A stretch of DNA of 64,000 nt from positions 3,041-67,040 of the forward strand of contig CAYTBK010000005.1 of assembly GCA_964436005.1 (NCBI GenBank). The letters run 5' to 3'. Of this stretch, positions 1 to 44,519 are shown piece after piece. Below the pieces are notes generated by a model. That model was given only the letters and a program-made list of their open reading frames with translations. It was not told where the DNA came from and did not search any database. The DNA comes from an uncultured Acidobacteriota bacterium. GTDB taxonomy: Bacteria; Acidobacteriota; JAAYUB01. The position numbers and the translations under genes are program-made. Numbering within the stretch: position 1 is the stretch's first letter; the number at the start of each line of letters is the position of its first letter.

Positions 1-1
1 G

Positions 2-226
2 ATGGGGAAACTGCCCAAAACACTCCCCGGCCTCTTCTTGAAGGCGCTTGCGATGGCCGGGCTGGCTCTGGTGAGGTCCGGGGCCGCCGAAAAACTCTTG
101 CGCAGTGCGGTCAGACGCATGGGGACGACTACCCCAGGCAATCCACAAGGCCGGAAGCCACGGGTTGGCGGCACCTTCTCTCAGGAGGTCAAAGCCTGGT
201 GGCGTTCGCGCCGCCAAGCCCCCTGA
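2..226 (+). CDS. 3' end of a CDS truncated by window start; hypothetical
   Basis: ORF open to window edge, stop at 224-226; no recognisable motif. Confidence 0.3.
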   Translation: MGKLPKTLPGLFLKALAMAGLALVRSGAAEKLLRSAVRRMGTTTPGNPQGRKPRVGGTFSQEVKAWWRSRRQAP

Positions 227-254
227 TTTCCCTCGCACTCACGGAGAGTGATCC

Positions 255-581
255 ATGTCGAAAAGCAATTGGTTGGAAAGGTTGTTCCGTCCAGACCAGC
301 CGGTGGCAAAGGGAGCGAATTTTGGGCTGCTGTCTTGGTTGGGCGGAAAAATCTGCCAGGACGCCAAGCTGAAGCAGCTGGTCTTGCAGACCGAGCTGGT
401 GAAAGCCGAAACGGCCCTGCTCAACAGCATGGGCGATAACATGAAAGCCCGCCTGCGCCTTCACCTTCTCTGCGACCCGTCGTTCCAGGAATCGCTGGCG
501 AAGAAGCTGGCGGCCGAGGAAGTTGGCGTAGACCTGCTGGAAGAATTACTCAAACCGGAGGATTCCGATGAAGCCGTCTGA
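255..581 (+). CDS. hypothetical protein (first of three coupled genes)
   Basis: ATG start 12 nt after preceding stop; overlaps next ORF by 14 nt. Confidence 0.5.
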   Translation: MSKSNWLERLFRPDQPVAKGANFGLLSWLGGKICQDAKLKQLVLQTELVKAETALLNSMGDNMKARLRLHLLCDPSFQESLAKKLAAEEVGVDLLEELLKPEDSDEAV

Positions 582-1050
582 TGAAACACCTTATCGCGGT
601 CCCGGCATCGGCGAGTTCGGCCGGCGCCTGGTGGACTGCTGGCTGGATCGTAAGCGCAAACAAGCGGAGGTCCGCCGCTTTCTCGAAAAGGACTTCGTCT
701 TTTTTGTGAAGGGCCGCTCAGAATATCAGGACGCCTACCGTCACGTCATCGCCCAGCTCAAAGAGCCGGAACCCGCATTTCATGACCGAGGCCGTTTCGT
801 GGAAGTCATGCTGCGCCGCTGGCTCGAGATCGTGCTGTTCCACGGGGTGAAGGAAGAACAAGCGGACTACGCCGCTCCGGCCGAGTCGCCGGATTATGCG
901 CTCCTGTACGACCAGTTCAAAGCGGGCGGCTTTCCGGAAGACGTGGCCATCACCGTGCAGTTTCTGATGGAGCAGTCCGGCGACTCTTCGTTGGCCGGTT
1001 TTACCGAGGCCTACCGGACGGCTTGCCGGGAGGTGGACCATGAGCGCTGA
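568..1050 (+). CDS. hypothetical protein (second coupled gene)
   Basis: Overlaps the upstream ORF by 14 nt and the downstream ATPase gene by 11 nt, indicating translational coupling. Confidence 0.55.
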   Translation: MKPSDETPYRGPGIGEFGRRLVDCWLDRKRKQAEVRRFLEKDFVFFVKGRSEYQDAYRHVIAQLKEPEPAFHDRGRFVEVMLRRWLEIVLFHGVKEEQADYAAPAESPDYALLYDQFKAGGFPEDVAITVQFLMEQSGDSSLAGFTEAYRTACREVDHER

Positions 1051-3028
1051 ACAATCGCCGCGCCTCCTGGATGCCTTCCGGACATTGCACCCGCAATTCT
1101 ACGCCGGCCGCTTGCCGGATGCGTCCCGCCGGGACGACCGGTTCTTCATCGGGAACCTGGATGGCCGGCCCAATGAGCGAGCCTTTTTAGACCCGCAGGC
1201 CTTCGGCGTCCACACCTTCGTGCTGGGGGTGTCAGGGAGCGGCAAAACGCGTTACATCAGCTATTTGTTGTTTGATCTCATTCGGCGCGGGCAGAAGATC
1301 GTCCTGTTGGATCCTGTCGGCGGGCTGTTCGCCGCCGTGCGCAACTTTGTGGGTTTCCTGTACCGGGTCTTCCGGGATTCTCCCTGGTTCCGCCGGTACT
1401 ATCTTGACGAGTTTCAAGAGCGGTTTTACTTCGTCGACTTTTCGGATCCCGGCAATCCATTCCGCTGGAACCCGCTGGAACGGATGGGGGAAGAAAGCAT
1501 CGACGAGACAGCCGGCGACCTGTTGACGGCCATCGAGGACAAGATCGGCAGCATGCTGGACATGCGCCGCCTGCTCAACGTGCTGAACGGCTTGTTCCGG
1601 ATCGGCATCGAGCTGGGGCTTACCTTGCCCGAAGTCCGGGACATGCTGCAAAACACCGAGTTCCGGGAAGCCTGCCTTCGCCGGGCGGCCCCGTCGGACG
1701 CGAAGCGCTATTTCGAGGACTTTCTGCTCCACTTCAAGGGCCAGGAGCTCAACAGCCGCCTGGAGTCGGCCGTCAATGCACTGAACATGCTGCTGAACGA
1801 GCCCTGCATACGCAATTTCTGCTCCGCCCCGAACGGCAATCTCGACTTGGCGAAAATCGTCAACGACCCGGGGAAAAGCCTGGTCGTCCATTTGCCAGTG
1901 GCTGCGTCCCACCATGGGGCGGAACTCATGGGGACACTCCTGCAGACGAAGGTCCTGCGCATCGCCTTCCGCCGAACGCCCGAGCAGCGAAAGCGGCGGC
2001 TTCACCTGGTGACGGACGAAAGCCACCTTTTCGTCAGCGACTACATCTCCAAGGCCTACAGCATCGTCAGGAACTACGGCGTCAGCATGGTGTATTCGGG
2101 TCAGTTCGCGCGGCAAATCCCCCTCAACACGCCCGAAGGGGAAGGCAAGATCAACAACATCATCTCCAACTGCAAGCTCCGCATCCTATTCCGCCTGGAC
2201 CGCGCCGACGCCGAATCGTTTGCCAAGCGGGTGCAACTGGTGGATTTCCGCCGGCTGAAAATGGTGGTGGAAGACGTAGCCGTTTCCCGCACCCAGACGC
2301 GATCCGAAGGGACGTCCCGCTCCCGCGGGGAAAGCCGGGGCGAAACCAGCACGCAAACCTGGTCGGTGACCATGACGGAAGGAACTTCGCAATCTCATGG
2401 CGGAACGAACAGCCGGGGGGAAAGCTCGAGCGTGGGGACGTCGGACGGGAAAACCTTCGGCATCGGGCTGTTGGCGGATGAGGACCGTCCCTCCAGCCGC
2501 CAAGCCGTTTCCACGTTGGGGTCCGGGTTGACCATAACCACCGGCAGCTCCTACGCCGCCGGCGCATCGCAATCCCGCGGGGAATCTTCCGGCGGAAGCC
2601 GGGGCGAGACCTTCACCGTCACCCAGACCGACGGGAAAACCGTCACGGTGGGCAACAGCGACGGTCGAACCGTTACCGCCCGCAACGTGTTCTGGACTTT
2701 GGAAGAGCAACGGGAAGAGTTCATCCAGAAACATTTCCTGTTTTCCCCGACCCGCCTGGCCCTCTTCGCCCTTTCCGACGGTCTGGCCTTGCGAGTGGAA
2801 ACCCCGTTCGTGCCGGACCGTTTCCCCGTCGTGACGCCGGACGGGAAAACCGACTACGAAGCGGCGTACCTGGAGCAATCCTGCCGCCGGGCCGGCCTGC
2901 TGCGGGTGGAGCCGGCCCCGGAAGCGCCGGGAGCCCCGGAAGTCAAGGGGATGGCGGTTGCGGCCGAGGACCAGTCGGCAGAAGCCGGGGCGTCGGGGAC
3001 CAGGAAACGCAAGCGGACGAATCTTTGA
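1040..3028 (+). CDS. VirD4/TraD-like type IV coupling protein family ATPase (no N-terminal TM), C-terminal S/T/G/R-rich repeat tail
   Basis: Walker A GVSGSGKT followed by the T4CP-typical IVLLDPVGG motif; Walker B-like HLVTDESH; C-terminal degenerate SRGES..SRGET repeats encoded by an internal DNA duplication (~2320-2390 vs ~2570-2640). Confidence 0.6.
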   Translation: MSAEQSPRLLDAFRTLHPQFYAGRLPDASRRDDRFFIGNLDGRPNERAFLDPQAFGVHTFVLGVSGSGKTRYISYLLFDLIRRGQKIVLLDPVGGLFAAVRNFVGFLYRVFRDSPWFRRYYLDEFQERFYFVDFSDPGNPFRWNPLERMGEESIDETAGDLLTAIEDKIGSMLDMRRLLNVLNGLFRIGIELGLTLPEVRDMLQNTEFREACLRRAAPSDAKRYFEDFLLHFKGQELNSRLESAVNALNMLLNEPCIRNFCSAPNGNLDLAKIVNDPGKSLVVHLPVAASHHGAELMGTLLQTKVLRIAFRRTPEQRKRRLHLVTDESHLFVSDYISKAYSIVRNYGVSMVYSGQFARQIPLNTPEGEGKINNIISNCKLRILFRLDRADAESFAKRVQLVDFRRLKMVVEDVAVSRTQTRSEGTSRSRGESRGETSTQTWSVTMTEGTSQSHGGTNSRGESSSVGTSDGKTFGIGLLADEDRPSSRQAVSTLGSGLTITTGSSYAAGASQSRGESSGGSRGETFTVTQTDGKTVTVGNSDGRTVTARNVFWTLEEQREEFIQKHFLFSPTRLALFALSDGLALRVETPFVPDRFPVVTPDGKTDYEAAYLEQSCRRAGLLRVEPAPEAPGAPEVKGMAVAAEDQSAEAGASGTRKRKRTNL

Positions 3029-3048
3029 CGGGGAGCGTTAAGGAAGAA

Positions 3049-3223
3049 ATCATCCGGGCGGGCGAAATGTCCGTCGGGGATGGCCGCAAATGGCGTCCAG
3101 CATCCCCGACTACGTCGTCTCTTCCCCTGGCCGAGCCGACGTAGTCGGGGCTTGGCCCGACGGACATTTCGCCCGGATTTAGATGATCCGTCGCCCTATA
3201 CGTTGACGGATAGGGCGACGGAT
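3049..3223. promoter_or_regulatory. nested inverted-repeat cluster upstream of the replication-relaxation gene (candidate oriT/operator)
   Basis: Outer IR 3052-3078/3156-3178 (23 bp with 3-nt bulge); inner IR 3104-3117/3137-3150 (14 bp); IR gtcggggatg 3073-3082/catccccgac 3101-3110; separate 14-bp hairpin 3186-3199/3210-3223. Confidence 0.5.
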
Positions 3224-3245
3224 AAGGCTGGGGACAGGGTGCCGA

Positions 3246-4235
3246 ATGCAAAACGAAACCGACTCTGAGGAAACGACCATGGAAGAACAAAGCACGGATG
3301 CCGGCCGCGACAGCGCCCCCGTCCACCTCACGCCGAGGGACATCCACTTGTTTCAACTGCTGCGCTGCTATCGGTTCCTGACCAACGACCTGGTCCGCAA
3401 GCTGGTCTTCTTCACCCGAGACGCTTCGGGCCGGAGGATCTACACCAGCCCCAGGAACGTCCGCAGGCGGCTGCATATGCTGCTGGAGCAGAACTATCTG
3501 CGCGCCTTCCGCGCCCCGGTGAAAACCGGCGAAGAAGCTTTCGTCCATCACTACTGGCTGGGCCCCAAGGCGGTCCCCATCCTGGCGGAGGCCGCCGGGG
3601 TGAGCGATGTCGCGACTCTCTGCCGCCGGGAGGCCGGGAACAAAATATTTCTCCTTCATACCATGCTGACGGAAAGCGTCATGGCTTCCTTCGAGCTAGG
3701 TCTGGACGGCTGCGGCGTGTTGCGGCAGCTGCCGATCGGCCTTGCCGGCGGCCTGCCCTGGGTGAACGAATGGGCCTACCAGGACCCTTCGGCGGTGAAA
3801 AAGGAAGACCGCTACCTTTCCTATGACCGGGTCTATGACCATCAGTCCAAATTGACGTTGACCGTTTACCCGGACAGCGTGACCGTGCTGGCGGGGGTCA
3901 ACGAACTGGCGGGCCTGCGGCGCGTCGTCTTCATCGAGGCGGACCGGGCCACCGTGCCGCACAAGCGCATGGTGGAGAAGCTGGCCGCCTATGCCGCCTA
4001 CCAGGATCAGCATAGGTACCGCAAATATGCTCCGGAGGCCGATGGGATGAAGGTTCTCCTGGTGTTCAGTTCCGCTCGCCGGTTGCAATCCGTGCAATTG
4101 ACGCTGTCGCGCCTGTCACGCATCCAGGAACTGGCGTTGTTGGGCTATGCCGGGGATGTGTGCGACCCCAAGAAAATCCTGACGGACAAGATTTGGACGA
4201 CGCCGCGAGGGGAGAAACTCTCCTTGCTCACCTGA
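3246..4235 (+). CDS. replication-relaxation family (Replic_Relax, wHTH) protein
   Basis: N-terminal wHTH-like motif HLTPRDIHLFQLLRCYRFLTNDLVRKLVFF...RRRLHMLLEQNYLRAFR typical of the PF13814 family. Confidence 0.65.
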   Translation: MQNETDSEETTMEEQSTDAGRDSAPVHLTPRDIHLFQLLRCYRFLTNDLVRKLVFFTRDASGRRIYTSPRNVRRRLHMLLEQNYLRAFRAPVKTGEEAFVHHYWLGPKAVPILAEAAGVSDVATLCRREAGNKIFLLHTMLTESVMASFELGLDGCGVLRQLPIGLAGGLPWVNEWAYQDPSAVKKEDRYLSYDRVYDHQSKLTLTVYPDSVTVLAGVNELAGLRRVVFIEADRATVPHKRMVEKLAAYAAYQDQHRYRKYAPEADGMKVLLVFSSARRLQSVQLTLSRLSRIQELALLGYAGDVCDPKKILTDKIWTTPRGEKLSLLT

Positions 4236-4447
4236 AGCTGAAGAGGAGCCGTTTCATCCGGCCTCACCAAGTTGCATTTCAGTTCATTCCATTTCATAAT
4301 ATTTTTTAGGGCAACTAGCTTATTATTCTTGATTTTAACTGCTATTTGACGATAATGAAATTAGGTTGATTGAAAGCCCCTTTTAGTCATCCTTTTTAGT
4401 TTTTCTCCCCTGAGTATGACGCCAGAAGTCCTGCTCCTGCTGGGAGG
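4236..4447. other. AT-rich island in a high-GC background (candidate origin/att/promoter region)
   Basis: ~210 bp with a strong GC drop and short catttca/cattcca/tttcata iterated motifs. Confidence 0.4.
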
Positions 4448-4726
4448 ATGCGCGATGATCGCGGCCGTGAACCTGTCATGTACGTGGTTGTTGCGCGGCT
4501 CCCGAGGGAAGAAACGATCCGGGAAACCCAGCCCCGGATCCAAAGCCGCTCGCCGTCCGCGAGCCCTTTGAAGACGCCGGATTTCGGGCCTACGCCTGGA
4601 ACCCGCTCCTTCTCCCTGCCGGGAGGGTCTCCCCAGACCCTCCCTTTCCTCCTCGTTTTCCGGCTTTCCCTGATCTTTGACAATCCGGTCTTCCCGCTCC
4701 GATTTTACTTGTTAACCTTGCTGCCT

Positions 4727-5152
4727 ATGCTGTGCTATCTCGACTCCAAGCTCCAGGACGATCCCGACATTGAGGACGTCACGGTGGAACCCCTCAAATG
4801 CTCCTGCTCCTATTGCGGCGCGGAACTGCAAGACGACGACTGCGCTTCGTGGAAAGAGACGCCCGACGCGGAAGGCGTTTGCCCCGAATGCGGCCATCTA
4901 TCCAGTTATTGCTGGAATGACCTTGACGGCCGCGCAGACTGGTTCAATTGGGCGAACATCTCCACCGACCGTCACGGTTGTCTTTACTTCAACGTGAGCG
5001 TCGCCGATCCCCGCGGCTCGGATCTCACCTTCATCCTCTACGTGGACCGCAACGATCAGGCGTACAAGGTGGTTCTGCCCGACGGCGGCCTGTCCTACCT
5101 CAAACCCAAGGACGAGCTGAAGGAGCGCGTGCTCGCCTACGTCTACAGTTGA
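4727..5152 (+). CDS. hypothetical zinc-ribbon protein
   Basis: CSCSYCG...CPECGH motif pair; no SD before 4727, so the start is uncertain (the ORF opens at 4448). Confidence 0.4.
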   Translation: MLCYLDSKLQDDPDIEDVTVEPLKCSCSYCGAELQDDDCASWKETPDAEGVCPECGHLSSYCWNDLDGRADWFNWANISTDRHGCLYFNVSVADPRGSDLTFILYVDRNDQAYKVVLPDGGLSYLKPKDELKERVLAYVYS

Positions 5153-5174
5153 TCTATTCTTTAACCCTCTCCCT

Positions 5175-5492
5175 ATGGAAAAATCGGACCCAACGCCGGA
5201 AAAAGAGCGGCTGCGCTACTTCGTGCTCCTGTTCGAGCTGAAGTTCCCCTCCGCCCGGCCCGGACTGACGGAAGACCGGATCGTCCTGGAAAAGCTGGTG
5301 CTGGCCGTCGACGAATCCGCCGCCGGATTCATCGGCAAACGCTGGGAAGCCGCCCAGGCCAAACGCAGCGACTGGGGCGCGGTCAAGTTCCTGGCCGTCA
5401 AGAAGGCCACCCAGCAAGCCAACGCCAACCTCGACCATCTGCGCAAGCTGGCCGTGGAAGCGGAAAAGGATGTGAAAAGCGCAGGGGCCTAG
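5175..5492 (+). CDS. hypothetical protein
   Basis: Plausible composition; no SD. Confidence 0.4.
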   Translation: MEKSDPTPEKERLRYFVLLFELKFPSARPGLTEDRIVLEKLVLAVDESAAGFIGKRWEAAQAKRSDWGAVKFLAVKKATQQANANLDHLRKLAVEAEKDVKSAGA

Positions 5493-5733
5493 CCTCGCCG
5501 GCAGCTCTGGAACCAGGGCTGCCGGTCCCTCTGCCGATTGTCGTCGTGAACTGCGACGTTTCCCTTTTTCGGCTCCTGGGCTGTGAAAGGATACCGTTTC
5601 CCGGCATGAAGAAGGCCGCAGACTTCGGCCGTCTCCGCCGGACCAGAAACCGGCCGTCACCACGGCCGCAGCCGGCCAGGCTGGATCAGCCCTCCGGAAC
5701 GGGCGCAACCCATTTCACAGGAGGAAACGAATC

Positions 5734-5949
5734 ATGGCCGAGAAAAAAGTGCTGATGAACTCGTCCGAAGCGGCCCAGTATCTGGGCGTGGCCCGGAGAA
5801 CGCTCTACAATTTAGTTTACTTCCGGAAAGTCCCCTTCACCAAGGCGTTCGGGAAACTCCAATTCGACCTCGAATTGCTCAACAGCTTCCTGATGGAGCG
5901 CACTTTCATGCCCCCGAAACCCAAGCCGCGGCCTGGGCAGAGCCTATGA
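5734..5949 (+). CDS. excisionase/AlpA-like HTH (HTH_17) DNA-binding protein
   Basis: SD caggagg 8 nt upstream; motif SSEAAQYLGVARRTLYNLVYFRKVP. Confidence 0.65.
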   Translation: MAEKKVLMNSSEAAQYLGVARRTLYNLVYFRKVPFTKAFGKLQFDLELLNSFLMERTFMPPKPKPRPGQSL

Positions 5950-5961
5950 AGGAGGTGGTCC

Positions 5962-6180
5962 ATGCCTGAAGGGATCAAACTGAAAAAGAGACTGGCGACC
6001 ATCAAGGAATTCTGCCGTGAAAACACCCAATTCCGGGAAGGCGGCATCCGAGCCCTAATCTTTCACTCCGACGACAACGGCTTCCGGAAAGTCCTGGTGC
6101 GCGTCGGCCGGAAAATCCTCCTGGACGTGGACGCCTTCGAGCTGTGGCTGGACCAGGCTAATGGCCGCCCGGGAAAATAA
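5962..6180 (+). CDS. excisionase-family HTH DNA-binding protein (paralogue of the preceding gene)
   Basis: SD gaaggaggtgg; motif IRALIFHSDDNGFRKVLVRVGRKILLDVDAFELWL. Confidence 0.65.
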   Translation: MPEGIKLKKRLATIKEFCRENTQFREGGIRALIFHSDDNGFRKVLVRVGRKILLDVDAFELWLDQANGRPGK

Positions 6181-6189
6181 TCAAGCTCA

Positions 6190-6230
6190 GGAGAGCGGGC
6201 AATCAGACTCGCTCTCCTAATTTCTTCTCC
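6190..6230 (+). terminator. intrinsic terminator after the xis-like genes
   Basis: 8-bp stem ggagagcg/cgctctcc with a 12-nt loop, followed by taatttcttctcc. Confidence 0.5.
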
Positions 6231-6364
6231 CCATGGCCCTCTCTTGTCCGCGCAACGTCTCCCCACATTTTCCCTGAGCTTTTTCCAAACTATTTCTCGA
6301 AGAGCCGAGGATATAGGCTTCCACTCCGAAGCCGAAAAGGCAACTCCCCCAAATTTCCCCCAAG

Positions 6365-6404
6365 GGCCTAAAAACAACAAGGACTTGCTAGTGCAAGTCC
6401 TTGA
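6365..6404 (-). terminator. intrinsic terminator of the tRNA-Val/tRNA-Asp transcript
   Basis: 10-bp perfect stem aaggacttgc/gcaagtcctt; on the minus strand it is followed by ttgttgttttt. Confidence 0.55.
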
Positions 6405-6410
6405 TTTAAA

Positions 6411-6487
6411 TGGCGGGGTCGACGAGACTCGAACTCGCGACCTTCGGCGTGACAGGCCGACGTTCTAACCAACTGAACTACGACCCC
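6411..6487 (-). tRNA. tRNA-Asp (GTC)
   Basis: Cloverleaf: acceptor GGGGTCG/CGACCCC, anticodon loop CTGTCAC, T-loop TTCGAGT, CCA encoded. Confidence 0.9.
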
Positions 6488-6559
6488 GCTCAATTCTGCT
6501 CGACATGATCCGCGGAACCTGGGTTCCGGCGGCGTGGCAAACCATGGAAAGATCGTTTC

Positions 6560-6635
6560 TGGTGGGCGGTACAAGGCTCGAACTTGTGACCCTCGGCTTG
6601 TAAGACCGATGCTCTACCAACTGAGCTAACCGCCC
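6560..6635 (-). tRNA. tRNA-Val (TAC)
   Basis: GGGCGGTTAGCTCAGTTGG...CTTACAA anticodon loop...TTCGAGC T-loop; CCA encoded. Confidence 0.9.
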
Positions 6636-7530: not shown

Positions 7531-8292
7531 GTGCGCAACTTTATTATTTCCATGCTGTTGACGTTCTGGTGGGGTTGGCTGCCCGCGTCGGGGGCGGAGG
7601 GCGGGGCCGGGCTCTTCGAGGCCTGCCGACGGGGGGATGCCGAAGCGGTGGCGCGGCTGCTGGACGGGGGAGCGCCCGTGGATGCCGCCGGCCGGGAGGG
7701 CGAGACCCCGCTCATGGAAGCTTCCGTCCATGGCCAAGGCGAAGTCGTGGTCCTCCTGCTGGCCAGGGGCGCCGACGTCCACGCGGCCACGTCCGCCGGG
7801 CTGAACGCCCTCATGCTGGCGGCGGCCAACGGCCGGCCGGAGATCGTGGAAGGGCTCCTGGCGGCCGGGGCCCGGGTGAACGAGGCCCGCCGGGACGGGT
7901 TCACCGCCCTGACGCTGGCCGCCGCGTACGGGCAGGCGGAGGCTTGCCGGGTCCTCCTGGCGGAGGGGGCCGACCCCCACGCGCGGACCTCCGCGGGCTG
8001 GACCCCCCTGCACTGTGCGGCGGCGGGGGGCTTCGTCGACGTCCTGGCCGCCCTGGTGGCCCATCACGCCGACGTGAACGCCCCGGCGGAGGGCGGGTTT
8101 TCCCCGCTGCGGGCCGCGGCGGCCAACGGCCACCGCGAGGCGGCCCTTTTCCTGCTGGCGGCCGGAGCGGGGGACGCCGCCGGCGCCGCCGAACTGGCCC
8201 GCCGGAACGGGCACCCGGCGGTGGCCGACGTGCTCGCGGGGAAGGACAAGACCCTTGACACGGCCGGCTCTTTCGCTAACATGGTCCGTTGA
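7531..8292 (+). CDS. ankyrin-repeat protein with N-terminal signal peptide
   Basis: GTG start with GGAGG 6 nt upstream; ~7 ankyrin repeats (TPLMEAS..GQGEVVVLLLARGADV etc.). Confidence 0.8.
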   Translation: MRNFIISMLLTFWWGWLPASGAEGGAGLFEACRRGDAEAVARLLDGGAPVDAAGREGETPLMEASVHGQGEVVVLLLARGADVHAATSAGLNALMLAAANGRPEIVEGLLAAGARVNEARRDGFTALTLAAAYGQAEACRVLLAEGADPHARTSAGWTPLHCAAAGGFVDVLAALVAHHADVNAPAEGGFSPLRAAAANGHREAALFLLAAGAGDAAGAAELARRNGHPAVADVLAGKDKTLDTAGSFANMVR

Positions 8293-16896: not shown

Positions 16897-19800
16897 TCAA
16901 AGCGCCTGCCGTCTCTTCTTCCCTTTGCTTTTCGACTTGCTGCCGGTGGCCTTGACTGGCTTTTTCTTGTGGACGCTCTGCTTCTTCTGTTTCGTGCTGG
17001 CCTTGTGGACGTGACGGGAAGGCCTGGGGGAAGGCTTCTGCTTCTTCACGGCCGGCCGGGGGGCGGCCGGCTTGTCCTTCGCCACGGCGGGGGCTGGCCC
17101 GGACGGGGGCTCCGCTGCCGGCGTGGGTTCCACGGCCACCGGCCGGGCCGGGAACAGGGCGCCGTCGCGCATGGCCGTGAGCAGGTCGCGGGCGGCGGGG
17201 GCCGCGGCCCGGCCGCCGTAACCGCTGTTCTCGAGGAGGAAGGCGAAGGCGACCGGGGCCCCGGGCTCGGGCCGGTCTGCCGGAGTGGCCGGCGGGGCAT
17301 CGGCCCCGGCGGACTTCCCCGCCGTCGGCCGCTCCGGCTTCTCCGGACGAATGTATTTCCCCGGGTCGGGCGGCGGGTCGGCGAACCCGATGAACCAGGC
17401 GTGGGATCGGCCGTCCCCCGATGCCGTCTGCGCTGTGCCGGTCTTCCCCCCCGTCACCAGGCCCTCCACCGCCGCCTGCCGACCGGTCCCGGACACGGTG
17501 ACGCTGACCATCCAGCTGCGCAGCTGGCGGGCGGCTTCTTCGGGGAGCAACGTAGCCAGATGGCCGGGTTTCGGCTCTTCCGGGTAGAGGGTGAGCCCCG
17601 GGACGACGCGGCGGCCGTCGTTGCGCACCATGGCCGCCACGGCGGCCATTTCCATGGGGGTCACGGCGACGAGGGCCTGGCCGTAGGCGTTGTCGGGCAG
17701 ATTCACGTCCATGGCGGCGGCGTTTGGAATGGCCGGCAACGTCAGTCCCAATTCTTTCTTGCAGAAGGAGAAGAAGTCGGGGGCGCCGACGCGGGTGCCC
17801 AGCCAGGCGAAGTACACGTTGCACGATTCGATCAGGGCCCTCGGCATGGCGATGCGTCCGTGCGCCGATTCCGTTTCGTCGTCGGTGACGCTGCGTTTGT
17901 GCAGGATTCGGTCGTATGTCCAGGGGATGACGTTCTTGTGCCGGCAGTCGATGGTTTCGGCATTCGGGGACAGGCCTTTCCAGAGGGCCGCGGCGGCCGT
18001 GACCACCTTGAAGGTGGAGCCCGGCGGGTAGATCTCTTTTCGGCACCGGTCGGCGACCGGGCGTTCTCCCGGGCCGTAGATGGACTGGAGCAGGGCCGGC
18101 GTGGGCGGGATGTTCGGGTCGTATCCGGGGAGGCTGAGGCAGGCCAGGATGTCCCCGGTGAGGGCGTTCAGCACGACGGCGGCGCCTGCCGAGCGGCGGA
18201 CCCCGTCGAATTCGGGGAAATTGTTCTGCAGGGCCCGGGCGGCGGCCGCCTGGATGCGGATGTCGAGCGACAGACGCACGTCGCGGTCCTGGCGCAGGAT
18301 GTCCCCCAGCCGGCCGGCGGGGAACAGCGCCCGATCGCGAAACGGCCCGGCCAGGCCGGAATAGTCGGGCTTGACGATGCGCACGCCTCCCACCACCTCC
18401 ACGCGCTCGCTGTACGGATAGCCCCGGAGGTGGGTGTCGAACTTCTTCTCGACGGTGTCCTGGTCCGACCAGTAATCCTGCGTGCACCCCAGCAGGTGCA
18501 CCGTCAGCGGGCCGAAGGGCTGGACGCGCCGCCGCCCGTCGGCGGCGGGGGGGGATCCCCCCAGGGCGCGGACGAGAGGCGCCACTTCCTCCGCCTCGAG
18601 CGGATCGTTGAGCGCCAGCGGAACTCCGCGGCAGTCGCGGATCGCGCCGCGGGGGATGAGAGCAGCCAGTGTCGTCAGGCGACGGTTGCAGGCGTAGCGG
18701 CGCACGCCGTCCCCCTGGGGGACGAGGCACGGTTTGACCAGGATGGCGTCGGCGGAGGGCCCCATGATGACCCACGCCTTCCCCGCCGCCAGGATCAGGG
18801 CGGCGGCGATGACGGCCGGCACGACCAGGGCGGCGGCCGGCAGCCTGACCGGACGCGGTTCGCCGGGCGGGCGCCGGGAGGCGATGTTGATCATGAGGCC
18901 GATCAGGATGAACGTGGCGATGGTGGCGGATTTCCCATAGCCCAGCAGGGGGAAGGGGATCCCGGTCAGGGGAAGGATCCCCAGCGAGGCCGCCGAGATC
19001 ACCGCGGCCTGGACGCCGAAGAGGAGGGCGAGCCCGAAACCCAGCCCGGACGCGTAGGCGTGCCGCGCCTGGTAGGCGTGGTAGATCATCATGACGAAGA
19101 TCGCGGTGCTCCCGGCGAGCAGGAGAGCGACGGCCGGGAAGCCGAAGACCTCGCCGCAGGAGGCCAGGATCAGGTCGGTATGGCCGGCGGGGATGTAGTT
19201 GGGTGACGACAGGCCGGGGCCGCTGCCCGCTCGTCCTCCCGAGGCGAGGGCCCAGAGCGACTCCGCCAGCTGGACGCCGCCCGGGCGGTGGTTGTCCCAG
19301 GGGGAAAGCCACATCTCGATGCGGGTGGAAACCGTCTGGAACACGGAGTGACGATAGGCCAGCCAGAACGCGGTGGTGAGGACGGCCAGCCCGGCCAGGC
19401 CCAGCATGAGCCGCCTGGCGATGGAGGCGAAGAGGCAGACGAACACCAGGTACAGGACCATGGCGGGGCCCAGGTCCTTTTGCACGAAAAAGAAGGCCAG
19501 CGACGTGCACATGAAGATCGCCACCGGCAGGACGTCCCGGATCCTGGGAATGGAAAATGGGCCCAGGCGGAAGGCGTTCAGCGCCTTCAGTTCGTTCTCC
19601 CGGTCGCTCAGGTAGGCGGCCAGGAAAAGGACCACCATGAGCTTGATGAATTCCACGGGCTGGAAACCGAACAGGTTGATGCGGGTGTCGGTCCCCTCGG
19701 GGCCGGAACCGTACAGGATGAGCAGGAGCGACAGGCCGAGAGCGGACAGAATGGTGATGTATTTGAAATCTTCCAGCGTGGACAGCCTGATGAAGCCCGC

Positions 19801-20556
19801 GGCTGCCACCAGCCCCACCATGGCCACCGCTACGCCTTCGGCAAAGGCGAACGCCAGCATGTTGTCGCGCAGCGGGTCCTGGAACTGGTAGAGGACAATG
19901 GCCGTAAAAGACGAGAAGAGCAGGACGGCGGGCAGGTAGAATTCGCCGCCCCGTCGTCGGCAGAAGCGCAGGGCCAGGTGCGCTGCGACGAAGAGGGTGG
20001 GGAAAGCCCACAGGTAGATTCGCCAGGTCTCCCGGGCCGTTTCGGCGGAACGAACGACGACGACATTCCGGATCTTCTGCAACTGGTCCGGTGACAGCGG
20101 GCGTACCTGCCCACGGTGGCCGGCTTTGCTTTCCGCCAGCAAGGCACTGAGGGACAGGTGGGTTTTCTCCCACCAGCCGGCTTCGTCCATCCGCCTGGCC
20201 ACGCGGGCCGCCAGCGGCCGGAGATCTTCGGGGGGAAGAAGGGTGGAAAGGGCCTGTTCGATTTCCGTCTCGGTGGCGGTTGACAATAATGTTATTCTGG
20301 GTGGTGCGATCCGCGAGGCAAAGGGTCGCATCCTGATCGGGGAAGAGGAGGCTGCTTCCGCGGGTTTTCCGGAAGACCCCGCCCCCCCTCCCGTTTGAGG
20401 CCCGAAAACACTGATTTTCCAGGGGAGCGGGGCGACGGAAGCGGCGATCCTGGCGTCACCGGAACGCAAACCGAGCTGAAGTATCCAGACACTGGCCAGG
20501 AGAATGAGGGCCAGTTCAATGTTCCGGCAGAGCAACACCACCCGCAATTTCTTCAT
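16897..20556 (-). CDS. SEDS glycosyltransferase (FtsW/RodA family) fused to a class B penicillin-binding protein transpeptidase, with a Lys-rich C-tail
   Basis: SEDS motifs (GFQPVEFIKLMVVLFLAAYL); additional TM helix and pedestal; STFK, SxN, KTGT transpeptidase motifs; single 1219-aa ORF. Confidence 0.85.
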   Translation of the reverse strand: MKKLRVVLLCRNIELALILLASVWILQLGLRSGDARIAASVAPLPWKISVFGPQTGGGAGSSGKPAEAASSSPIRMRPFASRIAPPRITLLSTATETEIEQALSTLLPPEDLRPLAARVARRMDEAGWWEKTHLSLSALLAESKAGHRGQVRPLSPDQLQKIRNVVVVRSAETARETWRIYLWAFPTLFVAAHLALRFCRRRGGEFYLPAVLLFSSFTAIVLYQFQDPLRDNMLAFAFAEGVAVAMVGLVAAAGFIRLSTLEDFKYITILSALGLSLLLILYGSGPEGTDTRINLFGFQPVEFIKLMVVLFLAAYLSDRENELKALNAFRLGPFSIPRIRDVLPVAIFMCTSLAFFFVQKDLGPAMVLYLVFVCLFASIARRLMLGLAGLAVLTTAFWLAYRHSVFQTVSTRIEMWLSPWDNHRPGGVQLAESLWALASGGRAGSGPGLSSPNYIPAGHTDLILASCGEVFGFPAVALLLAGSTAIFVMMIYHAYQARHAYASGLGFGLALLFGVQAAVISAASLGILPLTGIPFPLLGYGKSATIATFILIGLMINIASRRPPGEPRPVRLPAAALVVPAVIAAALILAAGKAWVIMGPSADAILVKPCLVPQGDGVRRYACNRRLTTLAALIPRGAIRDCRGVPLALNDPLEAEEVAPLVRALGGSPPAADGRRRVQPFGPLTVHLLGCTQDYWSDQDTVEKKFDTHLRGYPYSERVEVVGGVRIVKPDYSGLAGPFRDRALFPAGRLGDILRQDRDVRLSLDIRIQAAAARALQNNFPEFDGVRRSAGAAVVLNALTGDILACLSLPGYDPNIPPTPALLQSIYGPGERPVADRCRKEIYPPGSTFKVVTAAAALWKGLSPNAETIDCRHKNVIPWTYDRILHKRSVTDDETESAHGRIAMPRALIESCNVYFAWLGTRVGAPDFFSFCKKELGLTLPAIPNAAAMDVNLPDNAYGQALVAVTPMEMAAVAAMVRNDGRRVVPGLTLYPEEPKPGHLATLLPEEAARQLRSWMVSVTVSGTGRQAAVEGLVTGGKTGTAQTASGDGRSHAWFIGFADPPPDPGKYIRPEKPERPTAGKSAGADAPPATPADRPEPGAPVAFAFLLENSGYGGRAAAPAARDLLTAMRDGALFPARPVAVEPTPAAEPPSGPAPAVAKDKPAAPRPAVKKQKPSPRPSRHVHKASTKQKKQSVHKKKPVKATGSKSKSKGKKRRQAL

Positions 20557-24266: not shown

Positions 24267-27200
24267 ATGAAAAGCAAGGGGTGGGGTGTGAAGGGGGGGG
24301 TGTTCCTGATCCTATTGATGTTGACAGGCGGGGGCCTGTTCGCCGTGGAGCCGATCAACTCCTTTTCGGTCATTTATTTCGCCGATGTCAACAACGACAG
24401 CCTGCAGGACCTGCTCATCAGCAACAACCGCACGATCAGGGCCTACCTGAACCGGGGGACCGCCAGCGCGCCTTCCTATGGCTCGGCGGATTACGATCTG
24501 CCGATGGACGCCAACGCCTACCGGGTCATCGGCTCTTTCGCCGACATTTTTTACAGCGGCAAGATGGACGTCTTCTTCGGCGCCGAGGCCGGGGGAATCG
24601 GCCGCATCGCCAATACGGGGACGGCCTCCAACCCCGTCTGGACCACGGTCCGCAACACGGGGCTGCGAACCAATTCCTTCCTGGGCATCACCCACGACCC
24701 CTTCATCGAAACCGTCCTGTTCCACGACTTCGACAGCGACGGCGACCTGGACCTGATCTTTACGGACCCGTATTCTTTCCTCACCTACTATGTCAACCAG
24801 GATCGCGAATCCGACGGATGGGTGGATGGAAAGTGGAGCGGCACGACGACGCCTTCCTTCACCGTGCTGGTCAGCTGGTCCCCCCTCGTCGGCTGCGGCG
24901 CCACGTCCGCCAAGCCCGCCCTGTTGGACTGGACGGCCGACGGCCTGTTCGACCTGTATGCCGGTGACAACTTCAGCGGAGGAGTTCGTTCGTATGTCAA
25001 TTCAGGAACACTCACCAGACCTTCCTTGACCAGTGCTGGAATTGTTCTCACCGACGTTGTCACCGGGCTGTACCCGACCTGCGCCTTCCGCGATTTCACC
25101 GGCGACGGCTTCCTGGACTTGTACTACGGGAACGCCGCCGGGGCTTTCACCCTGGTCAGCTCCGTGAACCGAAGTTCCACCGATGTGGACGTCCTCCCTC
25201 CCCCCATGCCGGTCAGCGGGCTGACGAAAGACTCTCTGGAGGCGGGCGGCCTGACCCTGAAATGGCCCTTCGTGAACGACGCCGCCGTCACCAGCGGGTC
25301 CAAATACCGTTCCGGAGTCTACTCCTATGCCTTGTACCGCGACGACACGGGCGATTCCGATTTCACCCCGTCGCAGAACAATCTTCTGTGGAAGCACTAC
25401 CAATGGCATTACAGCCCCGACTACGCCCCGGAATTCGCCGACGGGGACGGCTTCAAGATCGTTAACAACTACTTCTACTACCACGACGCGGGGCTTTCGG
25501 GCGGGAATACATACTGCTACAAGCTCGTGGTGACGGACGCTGCCGGCAATTCCGTCACGACCGATGCCGTCTGCCAGACTTTCGACCCGCCCTACTTCGA
25601 TTCCGTCAGCGTGCAGGTTTCGCCGCTCGTGACCACGAACGCGTTTCTCCTGTCGTTCTCCACGCTGGACCAGTATGCCAACCTGTACCCCATCGAGCCC
25701 AACGGTACGGAGCCCAACATCTCGGTTCAGGTGTACAAGGGCACCCCGCCGGCTCCCTCCGGAGAAACGCTCGTGGACGCCGTTTCGAGCGAACCCGTCG
25801 CCTCCATGACATTCGACGGAACGTCCAACTACACGGGGACGGTGACCATCGCCGACAGTTCGTGCGAGCAGTTCTACGTTCACGTGACCGCCGTGCACAA
25901 CGCGACCACCGCCTTGATTACCAAGGAGAAACTGTCCTCTCAGGTGATCATCGACCGGGCCGCTCCCCCGATGCCGACCCTGACGGGAACCCCGCAGGGA
26001 TACTCCAGCATCGTGTTCAGCTGGACCCCCGTCACCGACAACTGTTCGTTGATCGCGCGGTACCGGCTTTTCATCAAGGGGCCCACCGACACGGCGTATT
26101 CGCAGCAGTATTCCGGTACGTTGACGAGCTACACGAAAACGGTGCTGCCCTGCCAGAGCTACCGGGCCTATGTCACCGCCGTGGACACGGCCGGGAACGA
26201 AACCGTCGTGGCCTCGCCGGATGCAGTGGCCGGCACCTACGCCGCGCTGCCCGATACCACGGCCCCCAACAACCCTACCGGCCTGACGGGAACGTATTAT
26301 AGCAGCGACACCAAGATACAGCTGAACTGGAACGACGTGGCGGATTCTCAGAGCGGCCTGTACCGCTACGAAATCCAGAAGCACCTGACCGGCGCCGAGT
26401 ACGCATTCCTTTGCTACGTCACCTATTCCGAGCATTCGGACAACCAGACCAATCCGGGAACGCCGGTGTACTACCGGGTCCGCGCCATCGACAAGTGCAA
26501 CAACGCGTCCGGATGGACGGAAGTGTCCGTAACCAAAATCGTCGACACCACCGCCCCGACGGTGCCGACCGGGCTTGCCGGCAGCGCCCTGAGCCCCTCC
26601 TCCATCGGACTGACCTGGAACGCATCCACCGACAGCGGCAGCGGCGTGCGCGGGTACAACATCTACCTGAACTCCAGTTCGACTCCTTTTGTGGAGGCCC
26701 CGACCAATTCCTACACCCATACGGGCCTGACCGCGAACACATCCTATACCTACCAGGTGGCGGCCGTCGACAATGTCGGAAACGTTTCGGCCAAGACTTC
26801 CGCGATTTCGGTGCGGACGCTTCCTTCCACTTCGGAAAAGCCGAATCCGCCCACCGATTTGCGGACTTCGCTGGTCGAGGCTTCGCGCGTGACGCTCCGC
26901 TGGACCGCCCCGACCGCCAGGGTGCCCGTCAGTTCCTACCGGGTATACCGCCACGCCAGCGCCACCTCGGCGGACTCCAGCGGCGTCCTGGTCGGGTCGT
27001 CGACCACAACGGAGTATACCGTTACCGGCCTGACGGCAGCGACGACCTATTATTACACCGTGAAATCCGTCAGTTCCACGAGCGTGGAGTCGAATCCGTC
27101 CAACCGCCTGGCCGTGACTACGGCCTCCGTGGCCACTCCGACGGTGCCCCAGAACTTCCGGGTCACCGATATCGGCAGCAACACGGTGGACCTGGCCTGG

Positions 27201-37426: not shown

Positions 37427-37663
37427 CTGCCCTGCCGGAATCAAGTGGGAAGCAAGGTCGGGGCGGGTGCGGCTTTCCAGCGGGGTGCACGCCGTTTCGC
37501 GGCGTTTTCCGGAGGGGGCCCCGGGCGGGCGTTCACCGGGCCAGGCGTGCCCGCGGCCGTTACAACTTTGGCAAGTCCCGGTATTTCGGAAAGTGAAAAA
37601 CGGGCGGTTCGGGGTAAAATCAGAGGAAAACACCGGTATGAATCTGTCCTGGGGAGGTTGCCG

Positions 37664-44506: not shown

Positions 44507-44519
44507 AGGGGGGACCGTG

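What the first reader, a model, noticed from the sequence alone, without database searches (positions are those of the whole stretch)
1..6410. Mobile-element block abutting the 3' end of tRNA-Asp: coupled three-gene T4CP-like ATPase module + Replic_Relax + twin Xis-like genes, no integrase in window
Sequence shows: three ORFs with 14- and 11-nt overlaps ending in an ATPase with GVSGSGKT followed by VLLDPVGG (a VirD4/TraD-like signature) and DESH Walker B, but no N-terminal TM helix. A wHTH replication-relaxation-like gene follows. A 210-bp AT-rich island sits in an otherwise GC-rich context. Two paralogous AlpA/Xis-like HTH genes each have a strong SD. All of this lies within 230 bp of the tRNA-Asp 3' end, the classic integration target. 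Integrase, relaxase and VirB4 are absent. The element is therefore either truncated by the window, decayed, or a compact mobilisable/defence-carrying island. The two upstream coupled proteins have no motif I recognise, and the ATPase could alternatively be a HerA-like (DEAH-type) defence ATPase.
Basis: partly seen in the sequence, partly recalled or inferred. Interest (0 to 1): 0.6.

Follow-up and report, generated by a model that had tools for sequence, protein, structure and literature searches.

The report
Mobilisable island end beside tRNA-Asp
This is the visible end of a foreign DNA island next to a tRNA-Asp gene that carries its own DNA-transfer kit (a coupling-type ATPase, a nicking enzyme and a likely transfer origin). 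The kit is a known kind, but its ATPase belongs to an undescribed, membrane-anchor-less branch with an odd serine/threonine-rich insert.

Summary
The described genes exist at the stated coordinates. Overlaps of 14 and 11 nt, the GVSGSGKT and DESH motifs, the PF13814 gene, the AT-rich gap and tRNA-Asp 230 bp away are all confirmed.

Three points need correcting:
- A relaxase is present. PF13814 (Replic_Relax) is the MOBC relaxase superfamily.
- The two small genes are not detectable paralogues. Only 5734-5949 is HTH_17.
- The HerA and MADS alternatives fail. The ATPase's fold best matches the coupling proteins Cag-beta, TrwB and DotL.

It is a candidate oriT.

In nine of ten independent related loci the same ATPase clade sits near a PF13814 gene. 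Four of these abut tRNA genes and three carry tyrosine integrases.

Best reading: the right end of an integrative mobilisable element with a CloDF13/MOBC1-like module of coupling protein plus MOBC relaxase.

The ATPase clade has no membrane anchor. It carries a disordered S/T/G-rich insert at a beta-hairpin tip and appears undescribed.

The integrase and the far att site lie outside the retrievable sequence.

The parts
2..226 (+). 74-aa ORF, the last of at least three further upstream genes of the same strand block. The 269-aa and 92-aa (about three TM segments) genes lie outside the window on contig L002.
   Evidence: No family hit.
255..581 (+). 108-aa orphan protein, first gene of the translationally coupled trio
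   Evidence: No Pfam, NCBIfam, PADLOC or PHROG hit. Its 90%-identity cluster holds only itself.
568..1050 (+). 160-aa orphan protein. It overlaps the previous gene by 14 nt and the ATPase gene by 11 nt.
   Evidence: No family hits.
1040..3028 (+). 662-aa T4CP-like ATPase without a membrane anchor. The P-loop plus all-alpha core is aa 31-420 (Walker A G63-K69, Walker B D326-E327). An S/T/G-rich disordered insert spans aa 422-538 (nt 2303-2653) at the tip of a long beta-hairpin. A conserved C-terminal module spans aa 540-620.
   Evidence: Pfam TrwB_AAD_bind 1.1e-7, DUF87 6.5e-6, T4SS-DNA_transf 2.4e-4. NCBIfam TraD/VirD4-like. Invariant catalytic residues. AlphaFold2 model. Foldseek top hits Cag-beta, TrwB, DotL. 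No TM segment.
3029..3245 (.). Inverted-repeat cluster, candidate oriT or relaxase binding region. 20-nt perfect arms 3059-3078/3156-3175 enclose an 18-nt hairpin 3104-3121/3133-3150. A further 18-nt hairpin lies at 3186-3203/3206-3223. The motif TCCGTCG occurs four times here and nowhere else in 1-6500.
   Evidence: No Rfam family. The function is inferred, not shown.
3246..4235 (+). 329-aa PF13814 (Replic_Relax) protein, a MOBC-type relaxase candidate. It has an N-terminal winged-helix region and a PD-(D/E)XK-like core (P209-D210, E231-x-D233-R234, K245).
4236..4447 (.). AT-rich gap (GC 0.41) with a sigma-70-like site at 4329-4356. Probably the promoter region of the downstream genes. It is not structured as a single strand (z=-0.3).
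4727..5152 (+). Probable 141-aa protein with a CxxC...CxxC zinc-ribbon-like motif. The open frame extends back to 4448 (234 aa), but that N-terminal part is low-complexity and its start is uncertain.
   Evidence: NCBI called a 224-aa version.
5175..5492 (+). 105-aa orphan protein
5734..5949 (+). 71-aa HTH_17 (excisionase/AlpA/MerR-type) DNA-binding protein: an excisionase or a relaxosome accessory factor
   Evidence: Pfam HTH_17 2.3e-7, TIGR01764 5.4e-6. 37% identical to the HTH_17 domain fused to the ATPase of P0002.
5962..6180 (+). 72-aa orphan protein with a strong SD. Not a demonstrable paralogue of the preceding gene.
6181..6410 (.). Junction region between the last island gene and tRNA-Asp (GC 0.50). 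It holds a terminator-like hairpin at 6189-6218 (+), a tRNA terminator-like hairpin at 6378-6403 (-) and a 16-nt direct repeat at 6259-6274/6344-6359. The exact island boundary is not determined.
6411..6487 (-). tRNA-Asp (GTC), intact with encoded CCA. Presumed integration target.

Best explanation
Window 1-6410 is the right-hand part of a chromosomally integrated, mobilisable element (IME-like). The element extends at least 1.3 kb further left and has inserted beside or into the 3' end of tRNA-Asp.

Its core is a mobilisation module of the CloDF13/MOBC1 type:
- a dedicated coupling-protein-like hexameric ATPase (1040-3028);
- a cis-acting, inverted-repeat-rich site (3029-3245) that probably serves as oriT;
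- a PF13814/MOBC-type PD-(D/E)XK relaxase with an N-terminal winged helix (3246-4235);
- a small HTH_17 protein (5734-5949) that acts as an accessory DNA-binding factor and/or excisionase.

Proposed mechanism (inferred, not shown):
1. The element excises using an integrase that lies outside the retrievable sequence.
2. The relaxase binds the repeats and nicks the transfer origin.
3. The element's own ATPase recognises the relaxosome.
4. The ATPase delivers the DNA to the mating channel of a co-resident conjugative element, replacing that helper's coupling protein.

The ATPase belongs to a distinct clade. It has no N-terminal membrane anchor. It has an S/T/G-rich disordered insert at the tip of a beta-hairpin, and a conserved C-terminal module. 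How it docks to a channel is unknown.
For: Shown:
- Gene content and coupling.
- T4CP assignment by sequence: TrwB_AAD_bind, T4SS-DNA_transf, TraG-D_C and TraD/VirD4 NCBIfam models.
- T4CP assignment by fold: the core has pLDDT about 90, and Foldseek ranks Cag-beta at 1.4e-10, TrwB at about 1e-9 and DotL ahead of HerA at 1.5e-8.
- Walker A/B and other catalytic-site residues are invariant across 25 relatives.
- PF13814 is hit above the gathering threshold. PF13814 proteins are recognised as MOBC relaxases, and streptococcal IMEs carry the same compact VirD4 + MobC arrangement.
- MOBC relaxases are PD-(D/E)XK enzymes with an N-terminal wHTH. A PD...ExDR...K pattern is invariant in nine homologues.
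- All three long inverted repeats in 1-6500 lie between the two genes. The ssDNA fold is -73 kcal/mol with z=-9, and the repeats are unique in the 64-kb window.
- Linkage is conserved. A homologue of this PF13814 protein lies near the ATPase homologue in L006, L008, L010, L011, L012, L013, L014/15, L019 and L030, which is nine of ten independent loci.
- Relatives abut tRNA-Phe in L010, L011 and L014, and tRNA-Arg in L013.
- Tyrosine integrases occur in L005, L006 and L012.
- GC is 0.60 in the block against 0.66 in the host part.
- All island proteins are singletons in a 15-billion-protein collection.
Against: - No integrase, att repeat or left end is visible, so integration and mobility of this copy are unproven.
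- No helper T4SS, and no second VirD4, is found in the 64-kb window.
- The ATPase lacks the N-terminal TM domain that VirD4-type T4CPs need.
- The PF13814 protein has no BLAST-detectable relative in 72,556 plasmids. Its link to characterised MOBC relaxases rests on the Pfam model and on the literature, not on a direct comparison.
- The strong inverted-repeat cluster is not conserved in position. Only L019 shows a weaker analogue (z=-3.5), and five other loci show none.
- ATPase plus PD-(D/E)XK nuclease pairs are also typical of defence systems, and the best PADLOC hit is mad8.
Confidence: 0.6

Rival explanations
1. The ATPase and the PF13814 nuclease form a defence system carried as island cargo, analogous to the HerA-nuclease pairs or to MADS. 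The hexameric ATPase would load onto invading DNA and activate or feed the PD-(D/E)XK nuclease.
For: - The best PADLOC hit of the ATPase is mad8, 6.9e-14. The HTH_17 protein weakly hits mad1/MAD1.
- HerA, HerA-DUF4297 and SIR2-HerA structures are also significant Foldseek matches.
- PF13814 is a PD-(D/E)XK nuclease family.
- Some relatives sit beside Ser/Thr kinase-TPR proteins whose kinase domain hits mad6 and PD-T4-6 models. One relative sits near an N6/N4 methyltransferase.
Against: - MADS detection requires MAD6, MAD7 and MAD8, and the system includes a methylase and a specificity subunit. None of the other window proteins hits any mad model.
- T4CPs rank above HerA by Pfam, NCBIfam and fold.
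- The pair recurs together with integrases, tRNA flanks and HTH_17 genes as the constant part of small islands. That is the behaviour of backbone genes, not cargo.
- A large cis-acting repeat structure between the two genes fits an origin better than a defence operon.
Confidence: 0.15
2. The block is part of a compact, self-transmissible element that uses a non-canonical transfer apparatus. The anchor-less ATPase, the upstream small membrane and coiled-coil proteins (large coiled-coil proteins in relatives) and the S/T/G-rich hairpin insert would together form the DNA conduit, with no classical VirB4-type T4SS.
For: - The ATPase is translationally coupled to two orphan proteins. These are preceded by a 92-aa protein with about three TM segments and a 269-aa protein.
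- Relatives conserve a 395-1225-aa coiled-coil/SMC-like protein and a second small protein just upstream of the ATPase.
- No VirB4 was detected in 10-kb flanks of the relatives examined.
- The S/T/G-rich insert is a clade hallmark: 19 of the 20 closest cluster representatives have it.
Against: - The upstream proteins of this element show no similarity to those of relatives.
- The insert is predicted disordered and polar, not membrane-spanning.
- One relative (L014) carries a canonical VirD4 nearby, which suggests dependence on a classical system.
- No experimental precedent was found.
Confidence: 0.12
3. The PF13814 protein acts mainly as a nicking replication initiator and the ATPase as a DNA pump or partition motor. 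They would maintain the excised circular form (plasmid-like or satellite-like), rather than serve conjugation.
For: - PF13814 is annotated for plasmid replication as well as relaxation.
- The PF13814 protein weakly hits a PHROG annotated 'replication initiation by nicking', 3e-4.
- Relatives of the ATPase exist in large Bacillus phages (phrog_5156 at 3.8e-14; BFVD hits).
- Relaxases of other families double as rolling-circle initiators.
Against: - No match to 50,697 phage genomes by tblastn.
- No structural phage genes in the block.
- The T4CP + MOBC pairing is a documented mobilisation signature.
- This role is compatible with, rather than exclusive of, the main explanation.
Confidence: 0.08

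Closest known systems
MOBC1 mobilisation modules (CloDF13 MobB T4CP + MobC relaxase) and streptococcal IME_Class_8 (VirD4 + Rel_PF13814/MobC + integrase)
   Same: A mobilisable element that encodes its own coupling-protein ATPase next to a PF13814/MOBC relaxase, in a compact arrangement and without a mating-pore gene set. It is an integrated form, like IME_Class_8.
   Different: - The ATPase has no TM domain and carries an S/T/G-rich insert plus a distinct C-terminal module.
- Related elements use tyrosine integrases and tRNA-adjacent sites, whereas IME_Class_8 uses a serine integrase.
- No BLAST-level similarity to any plasmid PF13814 gene.
- The host is an uncultured high-GC bacterium.
pAD1 TraX (MOBC prototype) with its oriT
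   Same: A PD-(D/E)XK-type relaxase with an N-terminal winged helix. Its oriT carries repeats, with the binding site 70-120 bp from nic. From my own memory, not checked here: pAD1 oriT2 lies between the TraG-like gene and traX and contains a large inverted repeat, which would mirror 3029-3245.
   Different: Only family-level (Pfam) similarity. The repeat architecture here is inverted repeats sharing TCCGTCG, not five direct repeats. No nic site is known.
VirD4/TrwB/Cag-beta/DotL type IV coupling proteins
   Same: Nucleotide-binding domain plus all-alpha domain fold, Walker A/B motifs, and linkage to a relaxase.
   Different: About 15% structure-based identity. No N-terminal TM stem. A 117-aa disordered insert. 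No adjacent T4SS.
MADS MAD8 / HerA-type defence ATPases
   Same: FtsK-HerA superfamily P-loop. mad8 profile hit at 6.9e-14 over aa 56-396.
   Different: The partner genes that define those systems are absent. HerA ranks below the T4CPs structurally.

Membership tests
Type IV coupling protein (VirD4/TrwB/TraD) | P-loop nucleotide-binding domain with Walker A and Walker B | tested here: met
   GVSGSGKT (G63-K69-T70) and D326-E327 are present. G63, G68, K69, D326 and E327 are invariant in 25 relatives.
Type IV coupling protein (VirD4/TrwB/TraD) | All-alpha domain inserted in the NBD, with an overall fold like TrwB | tested here: met
   Pfam TrwB_AAD_bind is above its cutoff (31.6 bits against 20.5). 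The model has a helical block at aa 154-275. Foldseek top 35 hits are Cag-beta, TrwB and DotL, with TM-score normalised to target length (TMt) 0.50-0.57.
Type IV coupling protein (VirD4/TrwB/TraD) | N-terminal transmembrane domain | tested here: not met
   No 19-residue window has Kyte-Doolittle hydropathy >=1.6. Only 8 of the 150 best relatives have a hydrophobic segment before Walker A. TMD-less T4CPs are a recognised minority.
Type IV coupling protein (VirD4/TrwB/TraD) | Works with a T4SS mating channel | not testable with these tools
   No T4SS gene was identified among the island's genes, and tblastn finds no second VirD4 or ATPase homologue elsewhere in the 64-kb window. A helper could be anywhere in the genome.
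MOBC relaxase (PF13814 Replic_Relax) | Match to PF13814 above the gathering score | tested here: met
   E=1.3e-14, 55.2 bits against 25.3, covering 183 of 191 model positions. Five relatives also match. The link from PF13814 to MOBC comes from PMC5357655.
MOBC relaxase (PF13814 Replic_Relax) | PD-(D/E)XK-type catalytic core | tested here: met
   P209-D210, E231, D233-R234 and K245 are invariant in a nine-sequence alignment. The fold was not confirmed, because the single-sequence model is unusable at pLDDT 35.
MOBC relaxase (PF13814 Replic_Relax) | N-terminal winged helix-turn-helix | tested here: inconclusive
   A profile of nine homologues gives only weak hits to MarR-type regulators over profile positions 46-100 of the nine-homologue alignment (E 0.08-0.4).
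MOBC relaxase (PF13814 Replic_Relax) | Site-specific nicking at a cognate oriT | not testable with these tools
   A candidate site at 3029-3245 is identified only from its structure and position.
Integrative mobilisable/conjugative element at a tRNA gene | Integrase gene | tested here: not met
   None in 1-6410 or in the extra 1.3 kb of L002. Present in relatives L005, L006 and L012. The left part of this element is not retrievable.
Integrative mobilisable/conjugative element at a tRNA gene | Direct repeat of the tRNA 3' segment at the far end (att sites) | tested here: inconclusive
   No repeat longer than 11 nt in window 1-6380 plus the L002 upstream 1274 nt. The far end is not in the data.
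Integrative mobilisable/conjugative element at a tRNA gene | Foreign composition, patchy distribution, position at a tRNA 3' end | tested here: met
   GC 0.60 against 0.66. All proteins are singleton clusters. The block abuts the CCA end of tRNA-Asp. Relatives abut tRNA-Phe or tRNA-Arg.
HerA/DUF87 defence or repair ATPase | HerA-specific architecture and a partner nuclease (NurA, Sir2, DUF4297) | tested here: not met
   The DUF87 hit covers only the P-loop, aa 36-94. HerA chains rank below T4CPs. No partner models are hit.
MADS (methylation-associated defence system) | MAD6, MAD7 and MAD8 together, with a methyltransferase and specificity subunit | tested here: not met
   Only mad8 (6.9e-14) and a weak mad1 hit. 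Requirements are taken from the MADS preprint.
HTH_17 / excisionase family | Match to PF12728 or TIGR01764 | tested here: met
   For 5734-5949: PF12728 at 31.4 bits against a cutoff of 27. TIGR01764 at 26.7 bits is just below its cutoff of 28.8. For 5962-6180: not met.

The most novel reading that the evidence does not exclude
The anchor-less T4CP-like ATPases with an S/T/G-rich hairpin insert, always partnered with a PF13814 nuclease and usually with a large coiled-coil protein and an HTH_17 factor, may define a previously undescribed DNA-mobilisation or DNA-targeting machine. It would be carried on small tRNA-associated islands of uncultured high-GC soil and water bacteria. Its docking and transport mechanism would differ from classical coupling proteins. 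The insert might replace the TM stem as the element that contacts the envelope or a helper channel.
Probability: 0.2. Interest if true: 0.7.

Novelty: new variant of a known kind. Interest (0 to 1): 0.45.

Why it matters
Integrative mobilisable elements are thought to be very abundant but are described almost only in Firmicutes, Bacteroidetes and Proteobacteria. MOBC relaxases are the least understood relaxase family: no covalent intermediate has been observed, and I know of no solved structure (none was found by sequence).

This locus and its relatives offer three things:
- a compact, recognisable signature for finding such elements in uncultured high-GC bacteria (TM-less T4CP with an S/T/G-rich insert, plus PF13814, plus HTH_17, next to a tRNA gene);
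- a candidate oriT with very clean repeats for biochemical work;
- a natural example of a coupling protein that must work without a membrane anchor.

If the insert-bearing ATPase clade turns out to have a different job (defence, or an autonomous conduit), it would be a new system.

Tried and rejected
- MADS membership was rejected. Only the mad8 and mad1 profiles hit, and the mandatory partners are absent.
- The HerA reading was rejected, for three reasons. The DUF87 hit is P-loop only, HerA ranks lower by fold, and no partner nuclease is present.
- A prophage or satellite reading was rejected. tblastn finds no match in phage genomes and no structural PHROGs are hit.
- Extending the element upstream gave only 1,274 nt, from Logan contig L002. 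The 70,059-nt source contig does contain the upstream 269-aa gene but could not be fetched.
- The search for an empty site or a junction failed. The host-side contig L031 stops inside tRNA-Val. I first considered the end of L001 inside tRNA-Asp as evidence of an att repeat. I rejected this because tRNA k-mers shared between organisms break metagenome assemblies anyway.
- The genome-contig scan found only a distant Saccharibacteria relative.
- Alignment-based locus scans failed twice for lack of conserved stretches before A3 worked.
- The PF13814 protein found no homologues by the word-indexed search or in plasmids.
The single-sequence model was useless at pLDDT 35, so no fold search was made on it.
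- Direct comparison with CloDF13 MobB/MobC failed. The deposited record is riddled with frameshifts and its ORF fragments hit no Pfam model.
- Host taxonomy could not be established. Cluster look-ups returned no names, and no paper mentions the runs.
- The upstream orphan proteins show no similarity to the conserved upstream families F3 and F8 of relatives.

Full report
OBSERVATION

- On the + strand lie 255-581 (108 aa), 568-1050 (160 aa) and 1040-3028 (662 aa), overlapping by 14 and 11 nt.
- The 662-aa protein carries GVSGSGKT, VLLDPVGG and TDESH. It has no hydrophobic stretch that could span a membrane.
- 3246-4235 encodes a PF13814 Replic_Relax protein, E=1.3e-14 and well above the gathering score.
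- The gap 4236-4447 has GC 0.41. The block has GC 0.60 and the remaining 57 kb of the window 0.66.
- tRNA-Asp (6411-6487, -) and tRNA-Val (6560-6635, -) are intact. The CCA end of tRNA-Asp faces the block.
- No integrase, VirB4 or other T4SS model is hit by any protein of the block.

Two statements do not hold.
- The two small genes are not demonstrable paralogues. BLASTP finds nothing. Only 5734-5949 is an HTH_17/excisionase-family protein. 5962-6180 stays unassigned even against a profile of the family's own HTH_17 proteins.
- 'Relaxase absent' is wrong, as explained below.

THE BLOCK CONTINUES TO THE LEFT

Identical metagenome contigs from four runs of one project carry the same genes. One of them, L002, adds 1,274 nt upstream. 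It brings a 269-aa protein, a 92-aa protein with about three TM segments, and the 74-aa ORF that starts at window position 2. The 70-kb source contig also holds the 269-aa gene, but I could not retrieve it. No repeat of the tRNA-Asp 3' part occurs in any of this sequence. All island proteins are singletons in a 15-billion-protein collection.

THE ATPASE

Sequence evidence:
- The models hit are those of coupling proteins: TrwB_AAD_bind, T4SS-DNA_transf, TraG-D_C and the TraD/VirD4 NCBIfams. The DUF87 and HerA profiles match only around the P-loop.
- An exhaustive HMMER search with aa 1-420 found 4,020 cluster representatives at E<1e-3 but only 20 below 1e-30. The best are 33-36% identical.

Shared architecture of the closest relatives:
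- a core of about 400 aa, without a membrane anchor;
- then 100-400 aa of S/T/G/R/E-rich low-complexity sequence;
- then a conserved module of about 60 aa;
- then usually an acidic tail ending in an acidic, aromatic motif such as PF(L/E/V)D, where this protein instead ends RKRKRTNL.

Nineteen of the 20 closest and 61 of the 150 best representatives have the S/T/G-rich stretch. Only 8 of 150 have a hydrophobic segment before Walker A. Walker A, Walker B and several other residues are invariant.

Structure evidence:
- An AlphaFold2 model built on 25 relatives is confident for aa 31-420 and 540-620 (pLDDT about 90). It places the low-complexity part (422-538, pLDDT below 30) at the tip of a long beta-hairpin, strands 406-426 and 532-551.
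- Foldseek against the PDB ranks Cag-beta, TrwB and DotL first (1e-10 to 1e-8). HerA, DndH and the HerA defence complexes come after them.
- The insert shows [ST]x[ST]xG pentads at roughly six-residue spacing, and four SRGE[ST] motifs. There is no DNA-level tandem repeat.

THE REPLIC_RELAX GENE IS THE RELAXASE CANDIDATE

- PF13814 proteins are recognised by CONJscan as the MOBC relaxase superfamily. Streptococcal IME_Class_8 has the same compact VirD4 + PF13814 arrangement (PMC5357655).
- The family was assigned to the PD-(D/E)XK fold, usually fused to an HTH (PMC3424549).
- The prototype TraX of pAD1 has an N-terminal winged helix and a restriction-enzyme-like active site. It binds repeats 70-120 bp from nic (PMC12857230).
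- The few known mobilisable plasmids that encode their own coupling protein also encode a MobC relaxase; CloDF13 is the prototype of that MOBC1 subfamily (PMC5704250 and PMC7434980).
- In an alignment of this protein with eight homologues from related loci, H138, R189, P209-D210, E231, D233-R234, K245, Y249 and Y261 are invariant. This gives a PD...ExDR...K pattern.
- The N-terminal part weakly resembles MarR-type winged helices.
- There is no BLAST-level relative in 72,556 plasmids. Family membership therefore rests on the Pfam model.

The 217-nt gap between the ATPase and relaxase genes contains the only three inverted repeats of 13 nt or more in 1-6500.
- 20-nt perfect arms (3059-3078/3156-3175) enclose an 18-nt hairpin (3104-3121/3133-3150).
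- A further 18-nt hairpin follows (3186-3203/3206-3223).

As single-stranded DNA the gap folds at -73 kcal/mol, with z=-9.0 against dinucleotide shuffles. As RNA, z=-7.0. The arms occur nowhere else in the 64 kb. They share the heptamer TCCGTCG, whose four copies are the only ones in 6.5 kb. No Rfam family matches.

The position, between the coupling-protein gene and the relaxase gene, and the repeat architecture are what one expects of an oriT. That is an inference. Among relatives only L019 has a weaker structured gap at the same place (z=-3.5), and five others have none.

RELATED LOCI

I examined ten independent loci carrying the ATPase clade with usable flanks.
- Nine have a PF13814 homologue of this protein within a few kb: L006, L008, L010, L011, L012, L013, L014/15, L019 and L030.
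- An HTH_17 gene directly precedes the relaxase gene in L008 (18-nt gap) and overlaps it by 8 nt in L030. It is fused to the C-terminus of the ATPase in L005, where that domain is 37% identical to the window's 71-aa protein.
- Tyrosine integrases occur in L005, L006 and L012.
- Four loci abut tRNA genes: tRNA-Phe in L010, L011 and L014, and tRNA-Arg in L013. In L013 the tRNA 3' end faces the ATPase gene, and high-GC3 host genes begin beyond it.
- Other recurrent neighbours are a 395-1225-aa coiled-coil/SMC-like protein, a small protein upstream of the ATPase, and a pair (about 390 aa, and 317 aa with an N-terminal HTH_17) next to tRNA-Phe. None resembles the window's orphan proteins.
- One locus also has a canonical VirD4.
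- One neighbour among 60 scanned carries ArdC domains.

INTERPRETATION

The constant partnership of ATPase, PF13814 and HTH_17 with integrases and tRNA flanks marks these genes as island backbone, not cargo. The best-supported reading is an integrative mobilisable element with a CloDF13-like module of own coupling protein plus MOBC relaxase, here seen only as its tRNA-proximal end. The steps from excision to transfer are inferred.

Rivals:
- An ATPase-nuclease defence system. It is supported by the mad8 hit and by the general logic of HerA-nuclease pairs. It is weakened by the absence of every defining partner and by the backbone behaviour.
- A self-contained non-canonical transfer machine.
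- A replication or maintenance role for the excised circle.

WHAT REMAINS UNKNOWN

- The left end, the integrase and the att sites of this copy.
- Whether the copy is active.
- The host taxon.
- The function of the two coupled orphan proteins.
- The role of the S/T/G-rich insert.

VERDICT

This is a real mobile-element end of a known general kind. The ATPase clade looks undescribed. It is moderately interesting.

Noticed in passing
window 3029-3245: Dense nested inverted repeats between the ATPase and PF13814 genes (ssDNA fold z about -9). They are unique in the window and share TCCGTCG four times. No Rfam match. Proposed as oriT.
   Followed up: yes
L001:1-30 versus window 56-85: In run SRR10083294 the contig carrying the island has 30 different bases to the left of window position 86, inside the 74-aa gene. 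This indicates a second variant or junction of the element in that sample. The 30-mer occurs nowhere else in the held sequences.
   Followed up: partly
window 2303-2653 (ATPase aa 422-538) and relatives P0017-P0035: The S/T/G-rich region has [ST]x[ST]xG pentads at about six-residue spacing and SRGE[ST] four times. Longer relatives have conserved motifs inside it (TLTEGxG, SESxGxTE). It is predicted disordered, at the tip of a long beta-hairpin. Its function is unexplained.
   Followed up: partly
L010:701-2845, L011:3618-5780, L014:16956-19067: A conserved gene pair sits directly against tRNA-Phe in three related loci, where an integrase would be expected. One protein is about 390 aa with no Pfam hit and a weak PHROG match to 'replication initiation O-like'. 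The other is 317 aa with an N-terminal HTH_17.
   Followed up: partly
L014:3926-5596 (-): A canonical VirD4-type coupling protein (PF02534, 4e-60) lies 4 kb from the insert-bearing ATPase + PF13814 pair. In that element the two ATPase types coexist.
   Followed up: no
L013:2889-5411, L014:14-1456, L006:13535-15442: Large TPR-repeat proteins grouped in one similarity cluster lie next to the PF13814 gene in L013 and L006, and in the same locus (about 7.5 kb away) in L014. The L013 one carries a Ser/Thr kinase domain that hits mad6 and PD-T4-6 defence profiles.
   Followed up: partly
window 6181-6410: The terminator-like hairpin of tRNA-Asp (6378-6403, - strand) lies on the island side of the tRNA. 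A 16-nt imperfect direct repeat (6259-6274/6344-6359) sits in the low-GC junction. These may be att-arm features.
   Followed up: no
window 16897-20556 (-): A 1,219-aa ORF matches both RodA/FtsW (aa 211-562) and PBP2 transpeptidase (aa 675-1060) models. It looks like a fused SEDS glycosyltransferase and class B PBP.
   Followed up: no
window 36812-44614 (-) / 36848-44506 (+), and 24267-29642 (+): Two overlapping open frames of about 2,550-2,600 aa lie on opposite strands and were not examined. A 1,791-aa protein has six stretches matching an exoglucanase CbhB model.
   Followed up: no
window about 7600-8292 (+): The C-terminal part of the long + strand ORF reads like ankyrin repeats (for example GADVHAATSAGLNALMLAAANGRPEIVEGLLAAGARVN). 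This was seen by eye in the translation and not tested.
   Followed up: no
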